Source of the DNA: an uncultured Actinomycetota bacterium
GTDB lineage: Bacteria; Actinomycetota; Actinomycetes; JAFAQI01
DNA: 64,000 nucleotides
Direction of reading: 5' to 3'
Assembly: GCA_963770565.1 (NCBI GenBank)
Contig: CAVYQE010000002.1
Location: forward strand, 656,672 to 720,671
The translations under genes and the position numbers were made by a program. The notes under the pieces were generated by a model, which worked only from the letters and a program-made list of their open reading frames with translations, had not been told where the DNA came from and made no database searches. Shown piece by piece: positions 8,188 to 35,000 of this stretch. The first letter of the stretch is position 1, and the number at the start of each line of letters is the position of its first letter.

Positions 8188-8272
8188 CCAAGCAATGTCA
8201 CATTGCCCCGGGAAACCCGGGGGCAATGTGACACCACCCCCTCAAAGTGCAGGGCAATGTCACATTGCTTGG
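8188..8272. repeat. Family-1 composite palindromic element, copy A
   Basis: CCAAGCAATGTCACATTGCCCCGGGAAACCCGGGGGCAATGTGACACCACCCCCTCAAAGTGCAGGGCAATGTCACATTGCTTGG. Three GCAATGTSACATTGC-like cores; the outer two form a 22-bp terminal inverted repeat. Sits between the convergent 3' ends of ppc and the 8276..9505 gene. Same element at 28291 and 34916. Confidence 0.8.
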
Positions 8273-8275
8273 CTG

Positions 8276-9505
8276 CTAGCAGGCGGGGACGCGGGGCAGG
8301 GCGTCGGGCCGGCGCAGGGTGGCAACGCCATACCGCACCAGCGGGGCCGAGACCTTGTGCCACGAGCTACCGCCGAGGTTTTCGGCGAGCGGCACAAAGG
8401 GGGTCGGGTGCGCCACACCGCACTCACCGTTGCGCGACCACTGACCCACGGCCGCGCCGCCAGCACTCGACACGCTGATCGCGTTCAGCTGCGAGTCATG
8501 GCCCGGCGAGGCCGCGTGCCCGTTTCGCCACTTTCCGCCGCTGTAGACCAGGACGTACGCCGAGCTCACGGTGCCCGTCTTCGCGCTGCTAGTGCCGGCG
8601 AGGTAGGCATGAGAGCCGGATGCCGACAGGGCCGAGGTCTGCGCGTAATAGCCCGGCGAGGCGACCTTGACCCGTGACCACTTCTTGCCGTTCCAGTGCT
8701 CGGTGAACGGCTGGGGGTGCAGGGTCGTCGTGCCCACCGAGATCGATCCGGCCACCCAGGTGTTCTTCGAGGAGGTGGTCGCGATCCGGTTGACCGACGC
8801 GCCGGACGGCAGCGTGAGCTGCATCACCTTGAACTTGTGACCGTTCCAGAACGTGACCACAACGCCCTTGACGTCAGTGCCGAGGATCCACACGTTCTTC
8901 GCGCTCGAGGTGCTGACCGCGCTGTCGTTGAACCCGGTCTGCTTGGTGTCCTTCAGCACAGCCCACTTGTGACCGTTCCAGTGCGCGATCAACGGGGTCG
9001 ACGTTGGCAGCCCGTCACCGACCGCCCAGGCATTCGACGCCGACGAGGCCGACACCGAGAGGAACTGGCCCTGCCCGATCGAGGTCTTCTCCGGCTTGAA
9101 GCCGCCGCCCGTGGAGTGCTCGATCAGGGTCGTGTCCGATGTACCGCCGAAGACGTCGCCGACGATCCAGGCCGAATGCGGCGATCCGGCCGCGACGTCG
9201 AACAGCTGGTCGCTCGTGACAGGGCTCGGCAGCTTCACGGTCACCTTCGACCAGTGCGAGCCGGATCGGCGCAGCGCGTACGGCGTCGACCCCGCGTTGG
9301 TCGACTGCATGCCAAGGGCGAACGCAGTGGTGGAGTGCGGCGCGACCGACACCGCGCTCAGCGATGCGGTCGTTATCTTGGCATTCGAGTGGGCCGCCGG
9401 GTGGCGGGTGGCACCGGACGCCGCGGAGCCGCTAGCGACCGCAGCCACGACGAGGCCTGACGCGATCGAAACGAGGGCAGCCCGACGGGCCAGCGAAGTC
9501 AGCAT
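8276..9505 (-). CDS. Secreted repeat protein (beta-propeller-like)
   Basis: Signal peptide MLTSLARRAALVSIASGLVVAAVASGSAAS. Roughly 45-50 aa periodic repeats with HWNGHKW / FWNGHKF / EHWNGKKW / NAWAVGD / NVWILGTD / NTWVAGS signatures. Family assignment uncertain. Confidence 0.55.
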   Translation of the reverse strand: MLTSLARRAALVSIASGLVVAAVASGSAASGATRHPAAHSNAKITTASLSAVSVAPHSTTAFALGMQSTNAGSTPYALRRSGSHWSKVTVKLPSPVTSDQLFDVAAGSPHSAWIVGDVFGGTSDTTLIEHSTGGGFKPEKTSIGQGQFLSVSASSASNAWAVGDGLPTSTPLIAHWNGHKWAVLKDTKQTGFNDSAVSTSSAKNVWILGTDVKGVVVTFWNGHKFKVMQLTLPSGASVNRIATTSSKNTWVAGSISVGTTTLHPQPFTEHWNGKKWSRVKVASPGYYAQTSALSASGSHAYLAGTSSAKTGTVSSAYVLVYSGGKWRNGHAASPGHDSQLNAISVSSAGGAAVGQWSRNGECGVAHPTPFVPLAENLGGSSWHKVSAPLVRYGVATLRRPDALPRVPAC

Positions 9506-9612
9506 GCGGAGGACCCTAGTGCAACGCTTAGCGGCCCTGCAGGCGATCCGCCAGACCAGCCCGAATCACCACTCCGCACCGACCTCATGCAGCGTGAAAC
9601 GTGCCGCGTGGG

Positions 9613-9635
9613 CCAAGCAATGTCACATTGCTTGG
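9613..9635. repeat. Solo 23-bp perfect palindrome of family 1 (CCAAGCAATGTCACATTGCTTGG)
   Basis: Equals the left and right terminal inverted repeats of the 85-bp family-1 element fused without the internal part. Lies 110 bp upstream of the start of gene 8276..9505 and 21 bp from the island attR-like repeat. Confidence 0.8.
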
Positions 9636-9653
9636 GCGACGGGGTGGGGCGTG

Positions 9654-31908: not shown

Positions 31909-32427
31909 ATGACCACCAGTGCCGTTGCTCCGACCCCTGCGCGGACACCCGCCCCGACCGGGGCCGCCACCCCGGCATCCGCTGCCCACCTGCTCGCTGC
32001 GTTCCGGACCGTCGTGCGACGGCTCGAGCGCACGCCGATGCCGGTCGACGCCCACACCCAGGCGGCCTGGAAGCAGTCGCCGCCGGCCCCGCGGCACGTG
32101 GCGGCACTGATGCAGGTGGTCGCCGACGAGCGGATGAGCGTGAGCACGCTGGCGTCCCAGCTCGGCGTCTCGCTGGCGACGGCCAGCCAGGTGGTCACCG
32201 ATCTCGAGGACAGCGGGCTGGTCGAGCGGATCGAGGATCCGACCGACCGACGCCGCACCCTGGTGCAGGTCGCGGAGACCCACCGGGCCCTCGCCGACAC
32301 GTTGCTCGACACCCGATTCCGGCCCGTGCAGCGCGCCCTCGACCGGATGCGTCCGGCCGAGCAACGTGCGTTCCTGCGCGGCCTCGAACTGCTTGCGCAA
32401 GAACTGGAGCAACCGACTGATGTCTGA
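31909..32427 (+). CDS. MarR-family transcriptional regulator
   Basis: Winged [47 protein letters not shown]. Overlaps the start of the downstream MFS gene by 8 nt. Confidence 0.8.
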
Positions 32428-34117
32428 CCTCGACATGTCCGCGACCAGCGGGCCGATCGCGCTGAAGCCGCGCCAGATCCGGCTGGTCTTCGCCGGCCTG
32501 ATGCTCGGCATGCTGCTCGCCGCGCTCGACCAGACCATCGTCGCGACCGCGCTGCCGACCATCGTCGGCGACCTCGGCGGGCTCAACCACCTTTCGTGGG
32601 TGGTCACGTCGTACCTGCTGGCCTCGACCGTCTCGACCCCGCTGTGGGGCAAGCTCGGCGATCTTTACGGCCGCAAGCGCTTCTTCCAGGCCGCGATCGT
32701 CATCTTCCTGGTCGGGTCGGCGCTGTCCGGACTGTCCCAGGACCTCAACGAGTTGATCGGCTTCCGTGCGTTGCAAGGTCTCGGCGCCGGCGGGCTGATC
32801 GTCGGGGCGCAGGCGATCATCGGCGACATCGTGCCGCCGCGCGATCGTGGTCGCTACACCGGCTTGATCGGTGCGGTCTTTGCGGTCTCGAGCGTCGCCG
32901 GCCCGCTGCTCGGTGGCTTCTTCACCGACGACCTGTCATGGCGCTGGGTCTTCTACATCAACCTGCCAATCGGCGCGATCGCGCTGTTCGTCGTGGCCGC
33001 TGTCCTGCATGCGCGCACCACCCGGATCGAGCACGACATCGACTACCTCGGTGCGTCGGTGATGTCGGCCTCCGTCGTCGCGTTGATCCTGATGCTGACC
33101 TGGGGTGGTTCGACCTACGCCTGGGGTTCGGCCACGATCATCTGCCTCGGCCTCGCCTCGCTCATCTTGCTCGGCATCTTTATCGCGGTCGAGCGGCGCG
33201 CAACCGAGCCGATCGTGCCGCTGCACTTGTTCCGCAACGGCGTGTTCCGGGTGTCGTTCGGAACCGGTGCGATCGTTGGTTTCTCGATGTTCGGTGCGTT
33301 GACCTTCCTGCCGCTGTTCCTGCAGGTCGTGCGTGGTGCCTCGCCGACGAGTTCGGGGCTGCAGCTGATCCCGATCATGGTGCTGGTCCTGGTATTCGCG
33401 ATCTATAGCGGGCGCCGGATCTCCGCCACCGGCACGTATCGCCGGTTCCCGATCGCCGGCACCGCGCTGACCACGATCGCGCTGTATCTGTTCTCCCACA
33501 TCAGTGCCACGACGCCGTTCTGGGAGATCGCGATCTTCATGGCGATCCTCGGCTCTGGCCTCGGTCTCACCATGCAGGTCCTCTTGATCGCGGCCCAGAA
33601 CTCGGTCCCCTATACCGAGCTGGGGGTCGCGACCTCGCTCGCGACGTTCTCCCGGTCGATCGGCGGCTCGATCGGGGTCGCGGTCTTCGGAACGATCTTC
33701 GACAACCGGCTCGCCGCCAACCTGCCCAAGCACGTGCCGGCCGCGGCGCTGAAGCACCTGCACGGCACATCGGTGAGCGCCAACCCGGCCGCGGTGAAGT
33801 TGCTGCCGGCGCCAGTCCGCGACGGCCTCCGAGTGGCGTTCAGCGACTCCCTGCACGTGGTGTTCCTCGCCGCCGTACCGTTCGCCATCATCGCCTTCCT
33901 GCTCGCGTTGCGGCTCAGGGAGATCCCGCTCCGCACGATGATGGGGGCCAAGGGTGGCGAGGAGCAGATCGCCGAAGGCACCGAGCTCGGAGAGTCGCTC
34001 GGGATGTCACCGCCGCCGACCGACGGGGAGCACGAGAGCCTCGAGCCGGACACCGTCGGCCACGGCTCGCCCGGGCGGGGCGCTACGAGCCCAGGAAGTC
34101 CACCAGCAGACGGTTGA
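32420..34117 (+). CDS. MFS transporter, DHA2 (14-TMS drug:H+ antiporter, EmrB/QacA) family
   Basis: N-terminal motif [19 protein letters not shown]; 14 hydrophobic segments; about 565 aa. Confidence 0.85.
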
Positions 34118-34895
34118 GCTCATCGGGGGCGTCGAGCTGAAGCCAGTGCCCGGCGCCCTCGATCTTCTCGAAGCGCCACGACCCTTCGATGTGGGCCTGC
34201 GAGCCGGTCATCTGCTTCTCGCCGAGCGCGATGTCGCGCGGGCCGAGCACGCCCATGACCGGGCACCGGATCGGCGGTAGCTCCGGCGGCGGGTTGACGA
34301 TCGTGCGCGGGCTCGCGTTCGCGCGATACCAGTTGAAGCTCGCGGTCAGAGCACCGGGGCGTTCGAGCTCAGCGAGCACGGCCTCGCGGTCGCGGTGGCT
34401 CGCGAGCATCTGAGCACCGAACATGCCGAACCACTGCTCGGCCACCACCGGCAGGTTGAACAGCAGCATGTAGAGCACGCGCATCCGCTGCTCGAACCCG
34501 GCTTCGGCGAACGCCTTCGGATGCCCGACCGACACCGCGACAAGCCGTTCGACCCGGTCCGGTACGAAAGCCGCCAGCCCCCAGCCGGCGACCGCGCCCC
34601 AGTCGTGCGCCACCACATTGGCCTTCCCGACCCCGACCTCGTCCAGGACGGCCACCATGTCGGCCACGGTGTTGGCGATCTTGTACGCCGCGACGTCCTC
34701 GGGTTTGTCCGACTCGCCGAAGCCACGGAGGTCCGGCGCGATCGTGCGATAGCCCGCGGCGCTCAGCGCCGCGACCTGGTGGCGCCAGAGCCGATGCGTA
34801 TCGGGCCACCCGTGCATGAACAGCACCGGCGTACCTTCCTCCGGCCCTTCCAGGAAGACCTCGATCCCGACCCCATCCGCACCGTCAACCCGCAT
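34083..34895 (-). CDS. Alpha/beta-hydrolase fold protein
   Basis: HGWP oxyanion motif ([13 protein letters not shown]) and nucleophile elbow VVAHDWGA; about 270 aa. ATG at 34895; the track TTG at 34919 would overlap repeat C. Confidence 0.8.
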
Positions 34896-34915
34896 ACCCA
34901 GGACCGTAACAAGGA

Positions 34916-35000
34916 CCAAGCAATGTCACATTGCCCCCCACTCCGTGGGGGCAATGTGACACCACCCCAGGAAAGACCGGGGCAATGTGACATTGCTTGG
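34916..35000. repeat. Family-1 composite palindromic element, copy C
   Basis: CCAAGCAATGTCACATTGCCCCCCACTCCGTGGGGGCAATGTGACACCACCCCAGGAAAGACCGGGGCAATGTGACATTGCTTGG. Its 22-bp termini are exact reverse complements of each other. Lies between the ptsI stop (35006) and the hydrolase start (34895). Confidence 0.85.

What the first reader, a model, noticed from the sequence alone, without database searches (positions are those of the whole stretch)
8188..35000. Family-1 dispersed palindromic element (~85 bp, three GCAATGTSACATTGC cores) at three intergenic loci
Copies at 8188..8272, 28291..28372 and 34916..35000 share the layout 22-bp left terminus CCAAGCAATGTCACATTGCCCC, a middle GGGGG-core-CCCCC unit, then right terminus GGGGCAATGTGACATTGCTTGG, which is the exact reverse complement of the left terminus. 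GC-clamped hairpins (CCCCGGGAAACCCGGGG) sit between cores. Two copies lie between the 3' end of one gene and the 5' start of the next; the third lies between convergent 3' ends. The structure fits a MITE/REP-like mobile palindrome or an array of three operator sites for an unknown dimeric regulator; it does not fit a CRISPR.
Basis: seen in the sequence. Interest (0 to 1): 0.7.

Follow-up and report, generated by a model that had tools for sequence, protein, structure and literature searches.

The report
REP-like palindromic repeat family, Frankiaceae lineage
The three 85-bp palindromic blocks are real copies of a dispersed, non-coding, hairpin-forming repeat family that sits just after stop codons in an uncultured Frankiaceae lineage; it resembles the REP/REPIN elements of proteobacteria and the TRIT motif of mycobacteria, so it is a new family of a known kind.

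Summary
Each element has a fixed, asymmetric layout: perfect core 1, a variable 10-nt hairpin tip, a degenerate core 2, a variable 10-nt spacer, and core 3.

The same 85-bp element occurs at 26 further loci. All but one are in a single sister-species Frankiaceae MAG. Related 75-bp doublets, solos and arrays occur in about eight other Frankiaceae/Mycobacteriales MAGs. The family is absent from 745 kb of more distant relatives, from plasmids and from phages.

- **Position:** copies sit a median of 5 nt from a stop codon, next to unrelated housekeeping genes.
- **Insertion signature:** there are no target-site duplications.
- **Structure:** covariation supports a core1:core2 hairpin.
- **Conservation:** two window copies are retained at orthologous sites in the sister species at 96% identity, against about 76% at third codon positions.
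- **Gain or loss:** the next relatives have empty sites.
- **Operator idea:** a test using a TetR gene flanked by cores failed.
- **Mobilising enzyme:** no transposase or RAYT was found.

Best reading: a REP/REPIN/TRIT-like structured intergenic element, gained and lost by an unknown route. It probably acts as a transcript-end hairpin, with a protein-recognised 15-bp core. Novelty is modest.

The parts
8188..8272 (+). Element copy 1 (85 bp, forward orientation), lying between the convergent 3' ends of ppc (5542-8145, +) and a 409-aa gene (8276-9505, -). Core 1 is at 8192-8206, the tip hairpin (GGGAAACCC) at 8210-8218, degenerate core 2 at 8223-8237, the spacer at 8242-8251 and core 3 at 8254-8268.
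   Evidence: Sequence; covariance-model hit of 94.7 bits on +; fold of -48 to -60 kcal/mol, z -4.4/-6.4. The orthologous copy in L039/L138 is 82/85 identical, while the adjacent intergenic DNA is 27/42.
9613..9635 (.). Solo 23-bp perfect palindrome carrying both element termini (CCAAGCAATGTCACATTGCTTGG). It lies 18 bp outside the distal tRNA-Ser att repeat. It is probably a remnant left by deletion between the terminal cores of a full element.
   Evidence: 23-26 bits on both strands; hairpin of -23.1 kcal/mol, z -5.6. It is absent from the sister species, which has only CCAAGCA at the site.
28291..28375 (-). Element copy 2 (85 bp, reverse orientation), lying between the 3' end of the AMP-ligase gene (28372-29991, -) and the 5' end of a 481-aa gene (26749-28194, -). 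The ligase stop codon (28372-28374) lies inside the degenerate terminus.
   Evidence: Sequence; covariance-model hit of 99 bits on -; fold of -62 to -64 kcal/mol, z -7.4/-8.3. The orthologous copy in L138 has 2 substitutions plus a 2-nt indel. The site is empty in L054, L055/56 and L057.
34916..35000 (+). Element copy 3 (85 bp, forward orientation), lying between the 3' end of ptsI (35006-36667, -) and the start of an alpha/beta hydrolase gene (34083 to about 34895, -). It is therefore antisense-oriented within a probable ptsI-hydrolase transcript.
   Evidence: Sequence; covariance-model hit of 101.6 bits on +; fold of -55 to -61 kcal/mol, z -6.1/-6.7. The site is empty in L054, which has a 34-nt ptsI-hydrolase gap.

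Best explanation
These are copies of a lineage-specific family of non-coding, non-autonomous palindromic repeat elements of the REP/BIME/REPIN kind. TRIT of mycobacteria is the nearest actinobacterial analogue.

**The unit.** The 85-bp unit is asymmetric. It consists of a near-invariant 15-bp palindromic core 1, a 10-nt tip that differs between copies but stays self-complementary, a degenerate core 2 that pairs with core 1, a 10-nt unconstrained spacer, and core 3. The termini CCAAG...CTTGG are mutually complementary.

**Shown here:**
- The family is dispersed at dozens of unrelated loci in a small clade of uncultured Frankiaceae.
- Copies lie within a few nt of stop codons and have no target-site duplication.
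- Copies are present or absent at the same sites in related genomes.
- Once in place, copies evolve far more slowly than synonymous sites.
- The core1:core2 hairpin is maintained by compensatory changes.

**Inferred:**
- The element spreads or is lost through a hairpin-dependent, duplication-free mechanism. A REPIN/RAYT-like single-strand transposition, or another enzyme that recognises the core, are candidates.
- The invariant core is a protein recognition site.
- Retained copies act at the RNA level as very stable 3'-end or intercistronic hairpins on either strand. They could stabilise transcript ends, insulate or attenuate transcription between adjacent genes, or serve as RNase III substrates. 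They do not act as promoter operators.
For: - **Not chance:** 7 core hits against 0.02 expected; covariance-model E about 1e-25.
- **Dispersal:** the genome-collection scan found 53 loci. About 33 are in one Frankiaceae MAG, the rest are in related MAGs, and about 7 are chance hits elsewhere. Among these are 29 elements of 83-86 bp with the same layout.
- **Lineage restriction:** 0 cores in 745 kb of loci from relatives whose AMP-ligase is 54-64% identical. No plasmid or phage match.
- **Structure:** folds of -48 to -64 kcal/mol, z -4 to -8, on both strands. The core1:core2 hairpin has 8 pairs with double changes, and 0 of 500 shuffles reach that; slid controls score far lower. The full-length palindrome interior and core2:core3 pairing show no covariation.
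- **Context:** 7 convergent, 13 tandem and 2 divergent. The median distance to a stop codon is 5 nt, and 14 of 19 copies lie within 10 nt. The 89 neighbouring proteins fall into 124 Pfam families with no recurrence.
- **No duplication:** no TSD and no copy-specific flank pairing.
- **Constraint:** orthologous copies are 164/170 identical, against 24% divergence at third codon positions (P<=2e-8). The copy-specific tip and spacer show 1 change in 40 nt (P<=0.004).
- **Gain or loss:** copies 2 and 3 are absent from L054-L057, and the solo is absent from L039/L138.
- **Match to published REPIN features (PMC3116915):** conserved ends, a spacer of fixed length with compensatory changes, singlets as remnants, and about 6 bp of invariant sequence left at excision sites. 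Here, CCAAGCA remains at the empty solo site.
Against: - No mobilising enzyme was found. There is no transposase, RAYT or integrase among all window genes or among the element neighbours. Only about 0.5 Mb of family-bearing DNA could be inspected.
- The GTAG/CGTC 5' tag of classical REPs is absent.
- Actual movement was not observed. Presence and absence are inferred from species that may lack the family altogether.
- There are no transcript data, so the RNA-level role is an inference.
- There is no U-tract after the hairpins, so they are not canonical intrinsic terminators.
- Copy 3 and the L012 array sit inside probable operons (gaps of 34 nt and 3-8 nt in relatives). This argues against strong termination.
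- The strict 31-bp spacing between core centres, with no indels in the variable segments, is not required by a hairpin model.
Confidence: 0.7

Rival explanations
1. The cores are binding sites on double-stranded DNA for a dimeric protein. This could be a regulator with a dispersed regulon, or a nucleoid or topology protein, as gyrase and IHF are for E. coli BIMEs. The element would then be an array of three phased sites.
For: - The core is a near-invariant 15-bp perfect palindrome (invariant columns), while the adjacent tip and spacer are free to vary.
- The core is shared by different architectures in different species.
- Centre-to-centre spacing is exactly 31 bp in the triplets and 52 bp in the 75-bp doublets, which is about 3 and 5 helical turns. 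The variable segments have no indels in 26 of 29 copies.
Against: - The sites lie at gene 3' ends and between convergent genes, not at promoters.
- Neighbours are functionally unrelated.
- Core 2 is systematically degenerate as a palindrome but complementary to core 1. Changes in core 1 are compensated in core 2 (L029, L048 and L011), which a duplex-DNA site model does not predict.
- The only regulator flanked by cores (the L012 TetR) lacks them at 8 orthologous loci, including one from a family-bearing MAG.
Confidence: 0.15
2. This is a classical MITE: a deletion derivative of a DDE-type insertion sequence, moved in trans through its 22-bp terminal inverted repeats.
For: - The 22-bp termini are reverse complements of each other.
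- The size is 75-85 bp.
- Copies are dispersed and intergenic, and related genomes differ in presence or absence.
Against: - 29 copies show no target-site duplication of any length.
- No full-length element or transposase with these ends appears in the window or in about 0.5 Mb of loci.
- Modular variants (solos, doublets, triplets and 51-nt tandem arrays) are typical of REP/BIME/BOX mosaics rather than MITEs.
- Orthologous copies are under purifying selection.
Confidence: 0.08
3. The elements are bidirectional Rho-independent terminators that arose and are kept for termination only, with no mobility. Their similarity would reflect a shared requirement of a termination factor, as was proposed for TRIT.
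For: - They are palindromic, fold stably on both strands, and are positioned tightly next to stop codons, sometimes overlapping them.
- TRIT has the same properties (PMC3152330).
- Orthologous copies are conserved.
Against: - There is no U-tract. Mycobacterial RNA polymerase is reported to need one (title and abstract of PMC3993855).
- Insertions lie inside probable operons (ptsI-hydrolase; amidohydrolase-TetR in L012).
- An 85-bp layout identical at about 30 unrelated loci, down to non-paired positions, indicates copying from a common source rather than independent origin.
Confidence: 0.07

Closest known systems
REP / BIME elements and REPINs (REP doublets forming hairpins) of Proteobacteria, mobilised by RAYT (IS200/IS605-like Y1) transposases
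   Same: Both are short palindromic units, extragenic and placed just after genes, with many copies at unrelated loci. Units alternate in orientation and form mosaics of singlets, doublets and clusters. The ends are conserved, while the intervening segment has a fixed length but variable sequence and is kept as a hairpin by compensatory changes. There is no target-site duplication. The family is vertically inherited and lineage-specific. A few bases of invariant sequence remain at vacated sites (PMC3116915).
   Different: - No RAYT or other Y1 transposase was found, though the search was limited to about 0.5 Mb.
- There is no GTAG/CGTC tag.
- The core is a perfect 15-bp palindrome, not an imperfect one.
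- The dominant form is a triplet with a degenerate middle unit.
- The host is an actinobacterium. In the RAYT distribution paper, a text search found no mention of Actinobacteria, although its taxonomy figure was not inspected (PMC5581495).
TRIT (Tuberculosis Rho-independent terminator motif) of Mycobacterium (Gardner et al. 2011, PMC3152330)
   Same: Both occur in the actinobacterial order Mycobacteriales in the GTDB sense. Both are sequence-conserved palindromic hairpins at about 150 copies per genome in scale, mostly bidirectional. Both have a very narrow position distribution at or overlapping the stop codon, and both are genus- or lineage-restricted. In both cases the high sequence conservation prompted the idea of a factor that recognises the duplex.
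   Different: - The sequences are unrelated as far as could be tested; no Rfam model matched.
- TRIT is reported only in Mycobacterium.
- The family here has a modular three-core architecture with terminal inverted repeats, and it shows presence/absence differences between related genomes.
Correia elements (Neisseria) and other bacterial MITE-like repeats (ERIC, BOX, RUP)
   Same: Both are about 100-bp intergenic repeats with terminal inverted repeats. When transcribed they fold into long hairpins, and they can affect transcript processing and stability (own knowledge). BOX elements are modular in a similar way.
   Different: Correia elements make a TA duplication and carry IHF sites and promoter elements. 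Here there is no duplication and no promoter-like sites.

Membership tests
REP/REPIN-RAYT system | Short palindromic units, extragenic, at many dispersed loci in one genome | tested here: met
   About 33 loci in one fragmented MAG and 4 sites in this 64-kb window, all intergenic. The total per complete genome was not measurable.
REP/REPIN-RAYT system | Two inverted units plus a spacer forming a hairpin, with conserved ends, a fixed-length variable spacer and compensatory changes | tested here: met
   The core1-tip-core2 hairpin has 8 covarying pairs, with 0 of 500 shuffles reaching that. The tip is 10 nt in 26 of 29 copies.
REP/REPIN-RAYT system | No target-site duplication | tested here: met
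   Flanks of 29 copies show no direct or inverted duplication.
REP/REPIN-RAYT system | Conserved GTAG (or CGTC) tetranucleotide at the 5' end of the unit | tested here: not met
   The termini are CCAAG/CTTGG. Only 4 of 29 copies have a CGTA left flank.
REP/REPIN-RAYT system | A cognate single-copy RAYT (Y1 transposase) gene, usually flanked by the repeats | tested here: inconclusive
   None was seen among all window genes, the 89 element neighbours or the genes flanked by two elements. Whole genomes could not be searched.
MITE (DDE-transposon derivative) | Terminal inverted repeats | tested here: met
   The 22-bp termini are reverse complements of each other.
MITE (DDE-transposon derivative) | Target-site duplication flanking each copy | tested here: not met
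   none found in 29 copies.
MITE (DDE-transposon derivative) | A parent autonomous element sharing the termini | tested here: inconclusive
   None was seen in the DNA available. Complete genomes were not searchable.
TRIT (Mycobacterium) | Palindromic, sequence-conserved hairpin tightly positioned at the stop codon and bidirectional | tested here: met
   compared with the description in PMC3152330.
TRIT (Mycobacterium) | Matches the TRIT consensus or covariance model; genus Mycobacterium | not testable with these tools
   No TRIT model was available. Rfam gave only sub-threshold hits to generic miRNA-precursor hairpin models. The host is a Frankiaceae-like lineage, not Mycobacterium.
Canonical intrinsic terminator | GC-rich hairpin followed by a U-tract | tested here: not met
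   The hairpin is present, but no T-run follows any copy.
Transcription-factor operator array | Located in promoter regions of a functionally coherent gene set, with an associated regulator | tested here: not met
   Copies lie at 3' ends or between convergent genes. Neighbours fall into 124 unrelated families. The TetR association was refuted.
CRISPR array | Direct repeats of one orientation separated by unique spacers, in long arrays, usually with cas genes | tested here: not met
   There are only three units, in alternating orientation, and the same 85-bp block recurs at separate loci. No cas domains were found in the window.

The most novel reading that the evidence does not exclude
The near-invariant 15-bp core, kept across triplet, doublet, solo and array architectures in several species and spaced at exact multiples of a helical turn, may be the recognition site of an as yet unidentified sequence-specific protein. 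That protein would not be a classical RAYT. It would both propagate the elements and use them, making this a REPIN-like, vertically inherited element-protein partnership in Actinomycetota. Its elements would have been co-opted as sequence-specific, U-tract-independent transcript-end signals.
Probability: 0.2. Interest if true: 0.65.

Novelty: new member of a known kind. Interest (0 to 1): 0.38.

Why it matters
High-GC actinobacteria are short of canonical U-tract terminators. REP-like systems have been studied almost only in Proteobacteria, and the only comparable actinobacterial motif, TRIT, still has no known mechanism.

This family offers three things:
- A second, independent example in the same order, with clear modular anatomy.
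- Evidence that individual copies are kept by selection after insertion.
- Filled and empty sites in close relatives.

These features make it useful for asking what recognises such motifs and whether they act on DNA or RNA. In practice, the family also explains contig breaks and annotation artefacts in these MAGs, such as start codons called inside cores and stop codons supplied by element ends. The host is uncultured, so experimental follow-up is hard and the immediate impact is modest.

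Tried and rejected
1. **Operator of a TetR regulator.** In L012 a TetR gene is flanked by a 135-bp five-core block and a 51-nt tandem array. Eight orthologous TetR loci, including one from the family-bearing MAG DASZOU, have no cores. The amidohydrolase-TetR gap there is only 3-8 nt. Rejected: the L012 arrays are insertions.
2. **Full-length 85-bp palindrome as the conserved structure.** It is the minimum-free-energy fold for most copies, but its interior pairs do not covary. The same is true of core2:core3 pairing.
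3. **Insertion into pre-existing hairpins, or an inverted duplication of the target.** Left flanks are C-rich and right flanks G-rich. However, flanks from the same copy pair no better than flanks taken from different copies (permutation p=0.53).
4. **Recurrent neighbour gene (transposase, RAYT or regulator).** None was found.
5. **Known RNA family.** Rfam gave nothing at the gathering threshold and only sub-threshold hits to generic miRNA-precursor hairpin models.
6. **Phage or plasmid origin.** One viral-contig hit is a chance match in AT-rich DNA. There were no BLAST hits in plasmids or phages.
7. **Metagenome scan with the AMP-ligase protein for more filled and empty sites.** It returned only relatives at 54-64% identity. 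This was useless for orthology but served as a negative control.
8. **Exact-protein look-ups of the window's own AMP-ligase.** Neither the ORF translation nor the 100%-identical hit P0001 was on record, so the source assembly could not be retrieved.
9. **Literature.** No paper in the library contains the 15-mer, and none describes REP-like elements in Frankia relatives.

Full report
**Observation.** The 15-bp core, allowing up to 2 mismatches, occurs 7 times in the window against 0.02 expected. A covariance model of the family finds exactly three full copies (95-102 bits) plus one solo unit in the 64 kb, and it fixes their orientations as +, -, +. Some details need correcting:
- The middle 'core' is always degenerate.
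- Only copy 3 has perfectly complementary termini.
- Copy 2 is inverted, and its outer terminus is CTGA, which contains the stop codon of the AMP-ligase gene.
- The CCCCGGGAAACCCGGGG hairpin is specific to copy 1.
- A solo 23-bp perfect palindrome at 9613-9635 was missed.

**Anatomy.** I oriented 26 copies of exactly 85 bp from the window and from related genomes. The alignment has no gaps and shows an asymmetric layout:
- CCAAGCAATGTCACATTGCCCC (core 1, centre C).
- A 10-nt tip, most often GCACTTCGTG, which differs between copies but stays self-complementary.
- GGGGCAATGTGACATCACCCCC (core 2, centre G, with its 3' half degenerate).
- A 10-nt spacer with no conservation.
- GGGCAATGTGACATTGCTTGG (core 3, centre G).

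Core centres are exactly 31 and 31 bp apart. Both strands fold very stably as RNA, at -48 to -64 kcal/mol with z -4.4 to -8.3. The minimum-energy fold is usually one long hairpin that pairs the two termini. Covariation, however, supports a different conserved structure: the core1-tip-core2 hairpin. It has 8 pairs with changes on both sides, no shuffle out of 500 reaches that, and slid controls score far lower. Clear examples are L048 (CCCC/GGGG replaced by GTG.../...CAC), L011 and L029; in L029 the centre of core 1 and the centre of core 2 changed together. The interior of the full-length palindrome and core2:core3 pairing show no covariation above shuffles.

**Distribution.** A scan of one genome per species for the 19-nt terminus gave 53 loci. 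About 33 are in a single uncultured Frankiaceae MAG (CAYNDD01). Most of the rest are in eight other Frankiaceae, Frankiales or Mycobacteriales MAGs. About seven are isolated hits in unrelated phyla, which is roughly the chance expectation I estimated from the collection size. In CAYNDD01 the element is the same 85-bp triplet. Other MAGs carry 75-76-bp doublets with the same 22-bp ends (core centres 52 bp apart), an 83-bp triplet variant, solos, or composite blocks built on the variant core GCAATGCCACATTGC, including a 51-nt tandem array. No cores occur in 745 kb of metagenome loci from relatives whose AMP-ligase is 54-64% identical. The family is absent from the plasmid and phage collections, and the single viral-contig hit is a chance match. 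The family is therefore dispersed within genomes but confined to a small clade.

**Context.** I called genes with a codon-usage model trained on the loci. Of the 22 classifiable 85-bp copies, 7 lie between convergent genes, 13 between tandem genes and 2 between divergent genes. The background is 16%, 69% and 16%; the convergent excess is suggestive only (Fisher p=0.07). The median distance to the nearest stop codon that faces the element is 5 nt, and 14 of 19 copies lie within 10 nt. Several copies abut or overlap the stop codon. In tandem contexts the orientation relative to transcription is mixed, 8 same and 5 opposite. The 89 immediate neighbour proteins hit 124 Pfam families, including ppc, topA, tRNA synthetases, purC and amtB, with no recurring family. 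Neither clustering of the neighbour proteins nor individual Pfam scans of genes flanked by two elements turned up a transposase. There is no target-site duplication. Left flanks are C-rich and right flanks G-rich (GGGG at +4 to +7). This is a family-wide compositional feature rather than copy-specific pairing (permutation p=0.53), and I cannot explain it.

**Evolution of individual copies.** Contigs L039 and L138 come from a sister species; ppc is 95% identical in protein, and DNA is about 85% identical over the 4.8 kb aligned with L039. They carry copies 1 and 2 at the orthologous sites with the same copy-specific tips and spacers. Together the two copies are 164/170 identical. By comparison, third codon positions of the four flanking genes are 24% diverged, and the 42 bp between ppc and copy 1 are 36% diverged (P<=2e-8). 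The 40 nt of tip plus spacer show one change (P<=0.004). Resident copies are therefore under purifying selection, including parts that are not conserved between paralogous copies.

The next relatives, with AMP-ligase 83-87% and ppc 81-84% identical, lack all three copies:
- L054 has a 34-nt ptsI-hydrolase gap.
- L055/56 have a 44-nt gap after the ligase.
- L142 has an 18-nt gap after ppc.
- L139 has, at the ppc site, a different palindromic element that shares only the ATGTSACAT centre.

The solo at 9613-9635 is absent from the sister species, which has just CCAAGCA there. The empty ptsI and ligase sites likewise carry GCTTGA and TTGG where the right terminus sits. This resembles the roughly 6 bp of invariant sequence reported at REPIN excision sites (PMC3116915). 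With three cases, two of them in diverged species, it is only a lead. A solo with both termini is what a deletion between the mutually repeated cores 1 and 3 would leave behind.

**Tests of rival readings.**
- *Operator array.* This is contradicted by position and by the variety of neighbours. The one suggestive case was a TetR gene in L012 flanked by core arrays. It failed: eight orthologous TetR loci, one from a family-bearing MAG, have no cores, and they show that in relatives the gene directly follows an amidohydrolase gene. The L012 block is therefore an insertion inside an operon. A residual version, a DNA-binding protein with a structural role, is kept alive by the invariant core and the exact spacing at whole helical turns.
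- *Classical MITE.* This fails on target-site duplication and on the lack of a parent element.
- *Canonical terminator.* This fails on the U-tract and on insertions within probable operons.
- *Known RNA families.* None match.
- *RAYT or other transposase.* None was found in the window or next to elements, but only about 0.5 Mb could be inspected and such genes are single-copy. This remains open.

**Comparison with known systems.** Conserved palindromic ends, a spacer of fixed length kept as a hairpin by compensatory change, singlets, doublets and clusters, extragenic placement, absence of duplications, and vertical persistence are the published properties of REPs and REPINs (PMC3116915). The tight stop-codon placement, bidirectionality, lineage restriction and high sequence conservation match TRIT of Mycobacterium. 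For TRIT, the authors suggested that a factor binds the double-stranded RNA motif (PMC3152330). The element works like these families. Membership of the RAYT-dependent family is not shown: there is no GTAG tag and no RAYT was found. TRIT membership could not be tested and is unlikely on host and sequence grounds.

**Verdict.** It is a new member of a known kind. I put 0.7 on the overall reading. The parts I consider shown are dispersal, structure, stop-codon position, gain and loss between related genomes, and selective retention. The mobilisation mechanism and the RNA-level function are inferred. Interest is moderate to low (0.38). The element is a useful second actinobacterial example alongside TRIT and raises an open question about what recognises the core, but it sits in an uncultured host and has clear precedents.

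Noticed in passing
window 9654-26718: A 59-nt direct repeat at 9654-9712 is 98% identical to the 3' part of tRNA-Ser(GCT) at 26629-26718 (-). The two repeats bracket a roughly 17-kb segment with lower GC (0.63-0.66 in places). The segment is absent from the sister-species contig L138, where the 409-aa gene is followed directly by the tRNA. It is a genomic island carrying MMPL, a CsoR-like repressor, rhodanese/MBL, MshC-like and PIG-L (MshB-like) enzymes, an SQR-like oxidoreductase, TauE, thioredoxin and peroxiredoxin. No integrase was detected, and there are no family-1 cores inside it.
   Followed up: partly
window 42932-43002 and 45815-45885: A second palindromic repeat family: about 71 bp, 77% identical, with termini GAGTTGATCATGGCGA / TCGCCATGATCAAC. 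One copy ends 5 nt from the stop codon of the gene at 43008-43388. The other overlaps the stop codon of the CorA gene (45876-46883) and lies 35 nt from tRNA-Ser(TGA). It shows the same stop-codon-hugging behaviour as family 1.
   Followed up: no
window 59917-59998: A third kind of intergenic palindrome pair: CCCCACCGATGGGCCATCGGTGGGG followed by CCCCACCAATGGGCCATGCGTGTGG. It lies upstream of a TerC-family gene (58743-59738, -). The family-1 covariance model picked it up weakly (15.7 bits).
   Followed up: no
L139 3283-3377: In a relative with 84% identical ppc, the same ppc-3' intergenic site holds a different palindromic element (termini CGTTCGTATGTSACAT, with an internal GGGTTGC/GCAACCC hairpin). 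It shares only the ATGTSACAT centre with family 1. This may be a sister family or a repeatedly used insertion site. It was not seen in any other fetched locus.
   Followed up: partly
L012 1360-1579 and 2271-2405: In Frankiales MAG JAICXJ01, a TetR gene is flanked by four tandem 51-nt units that each carry the variant core GCAATGCCACATTGC (preceded by one degenerate core) and by a 135-bp five-core composite. Orthologous loci show that the upstream composite was inserted into a 3-8-nt intercistronic gap of an operon. The longest ORF for the TetR gene begins at an ATG inside a core (ATGTGGCATTGC); a GTG about 24 nt downstream looks the more likely true start.
   Followed up: yes
L015 6236-6320: In one copy the tip and the spacer are the same 10-mer (ATGGTTTCCG) as a direct repeat. 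This suggests unit duplication or conversion between the core 1-2 and core 2-3 intervals, and so points to a tandem-unit origin for the triplet.
   Followed up: no
flanks of 29 element copies (window and L002-L053): Oriented left flanks are C-rich at -8 to -4, with G at -3 and T at -2. Right flanks have GGGG at +4 to +7 in about two thirds of copies. Pairing is not copy-specific. The cause is unresolved; target preference, C-terminal coding bias and an extended element boundary are all possible.
   Followed up: partly
window 9613-9635 vs L138 about 6705; window 34916-35000 vs L054 about 2900: Empty orthologous sites retain 4-7 nt identical or similar to an element terminus (CCAAGCA; GCTTGA; TTGG). 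This is reminiscent of the footprint described for REPIN excision.
   Followed up: partly
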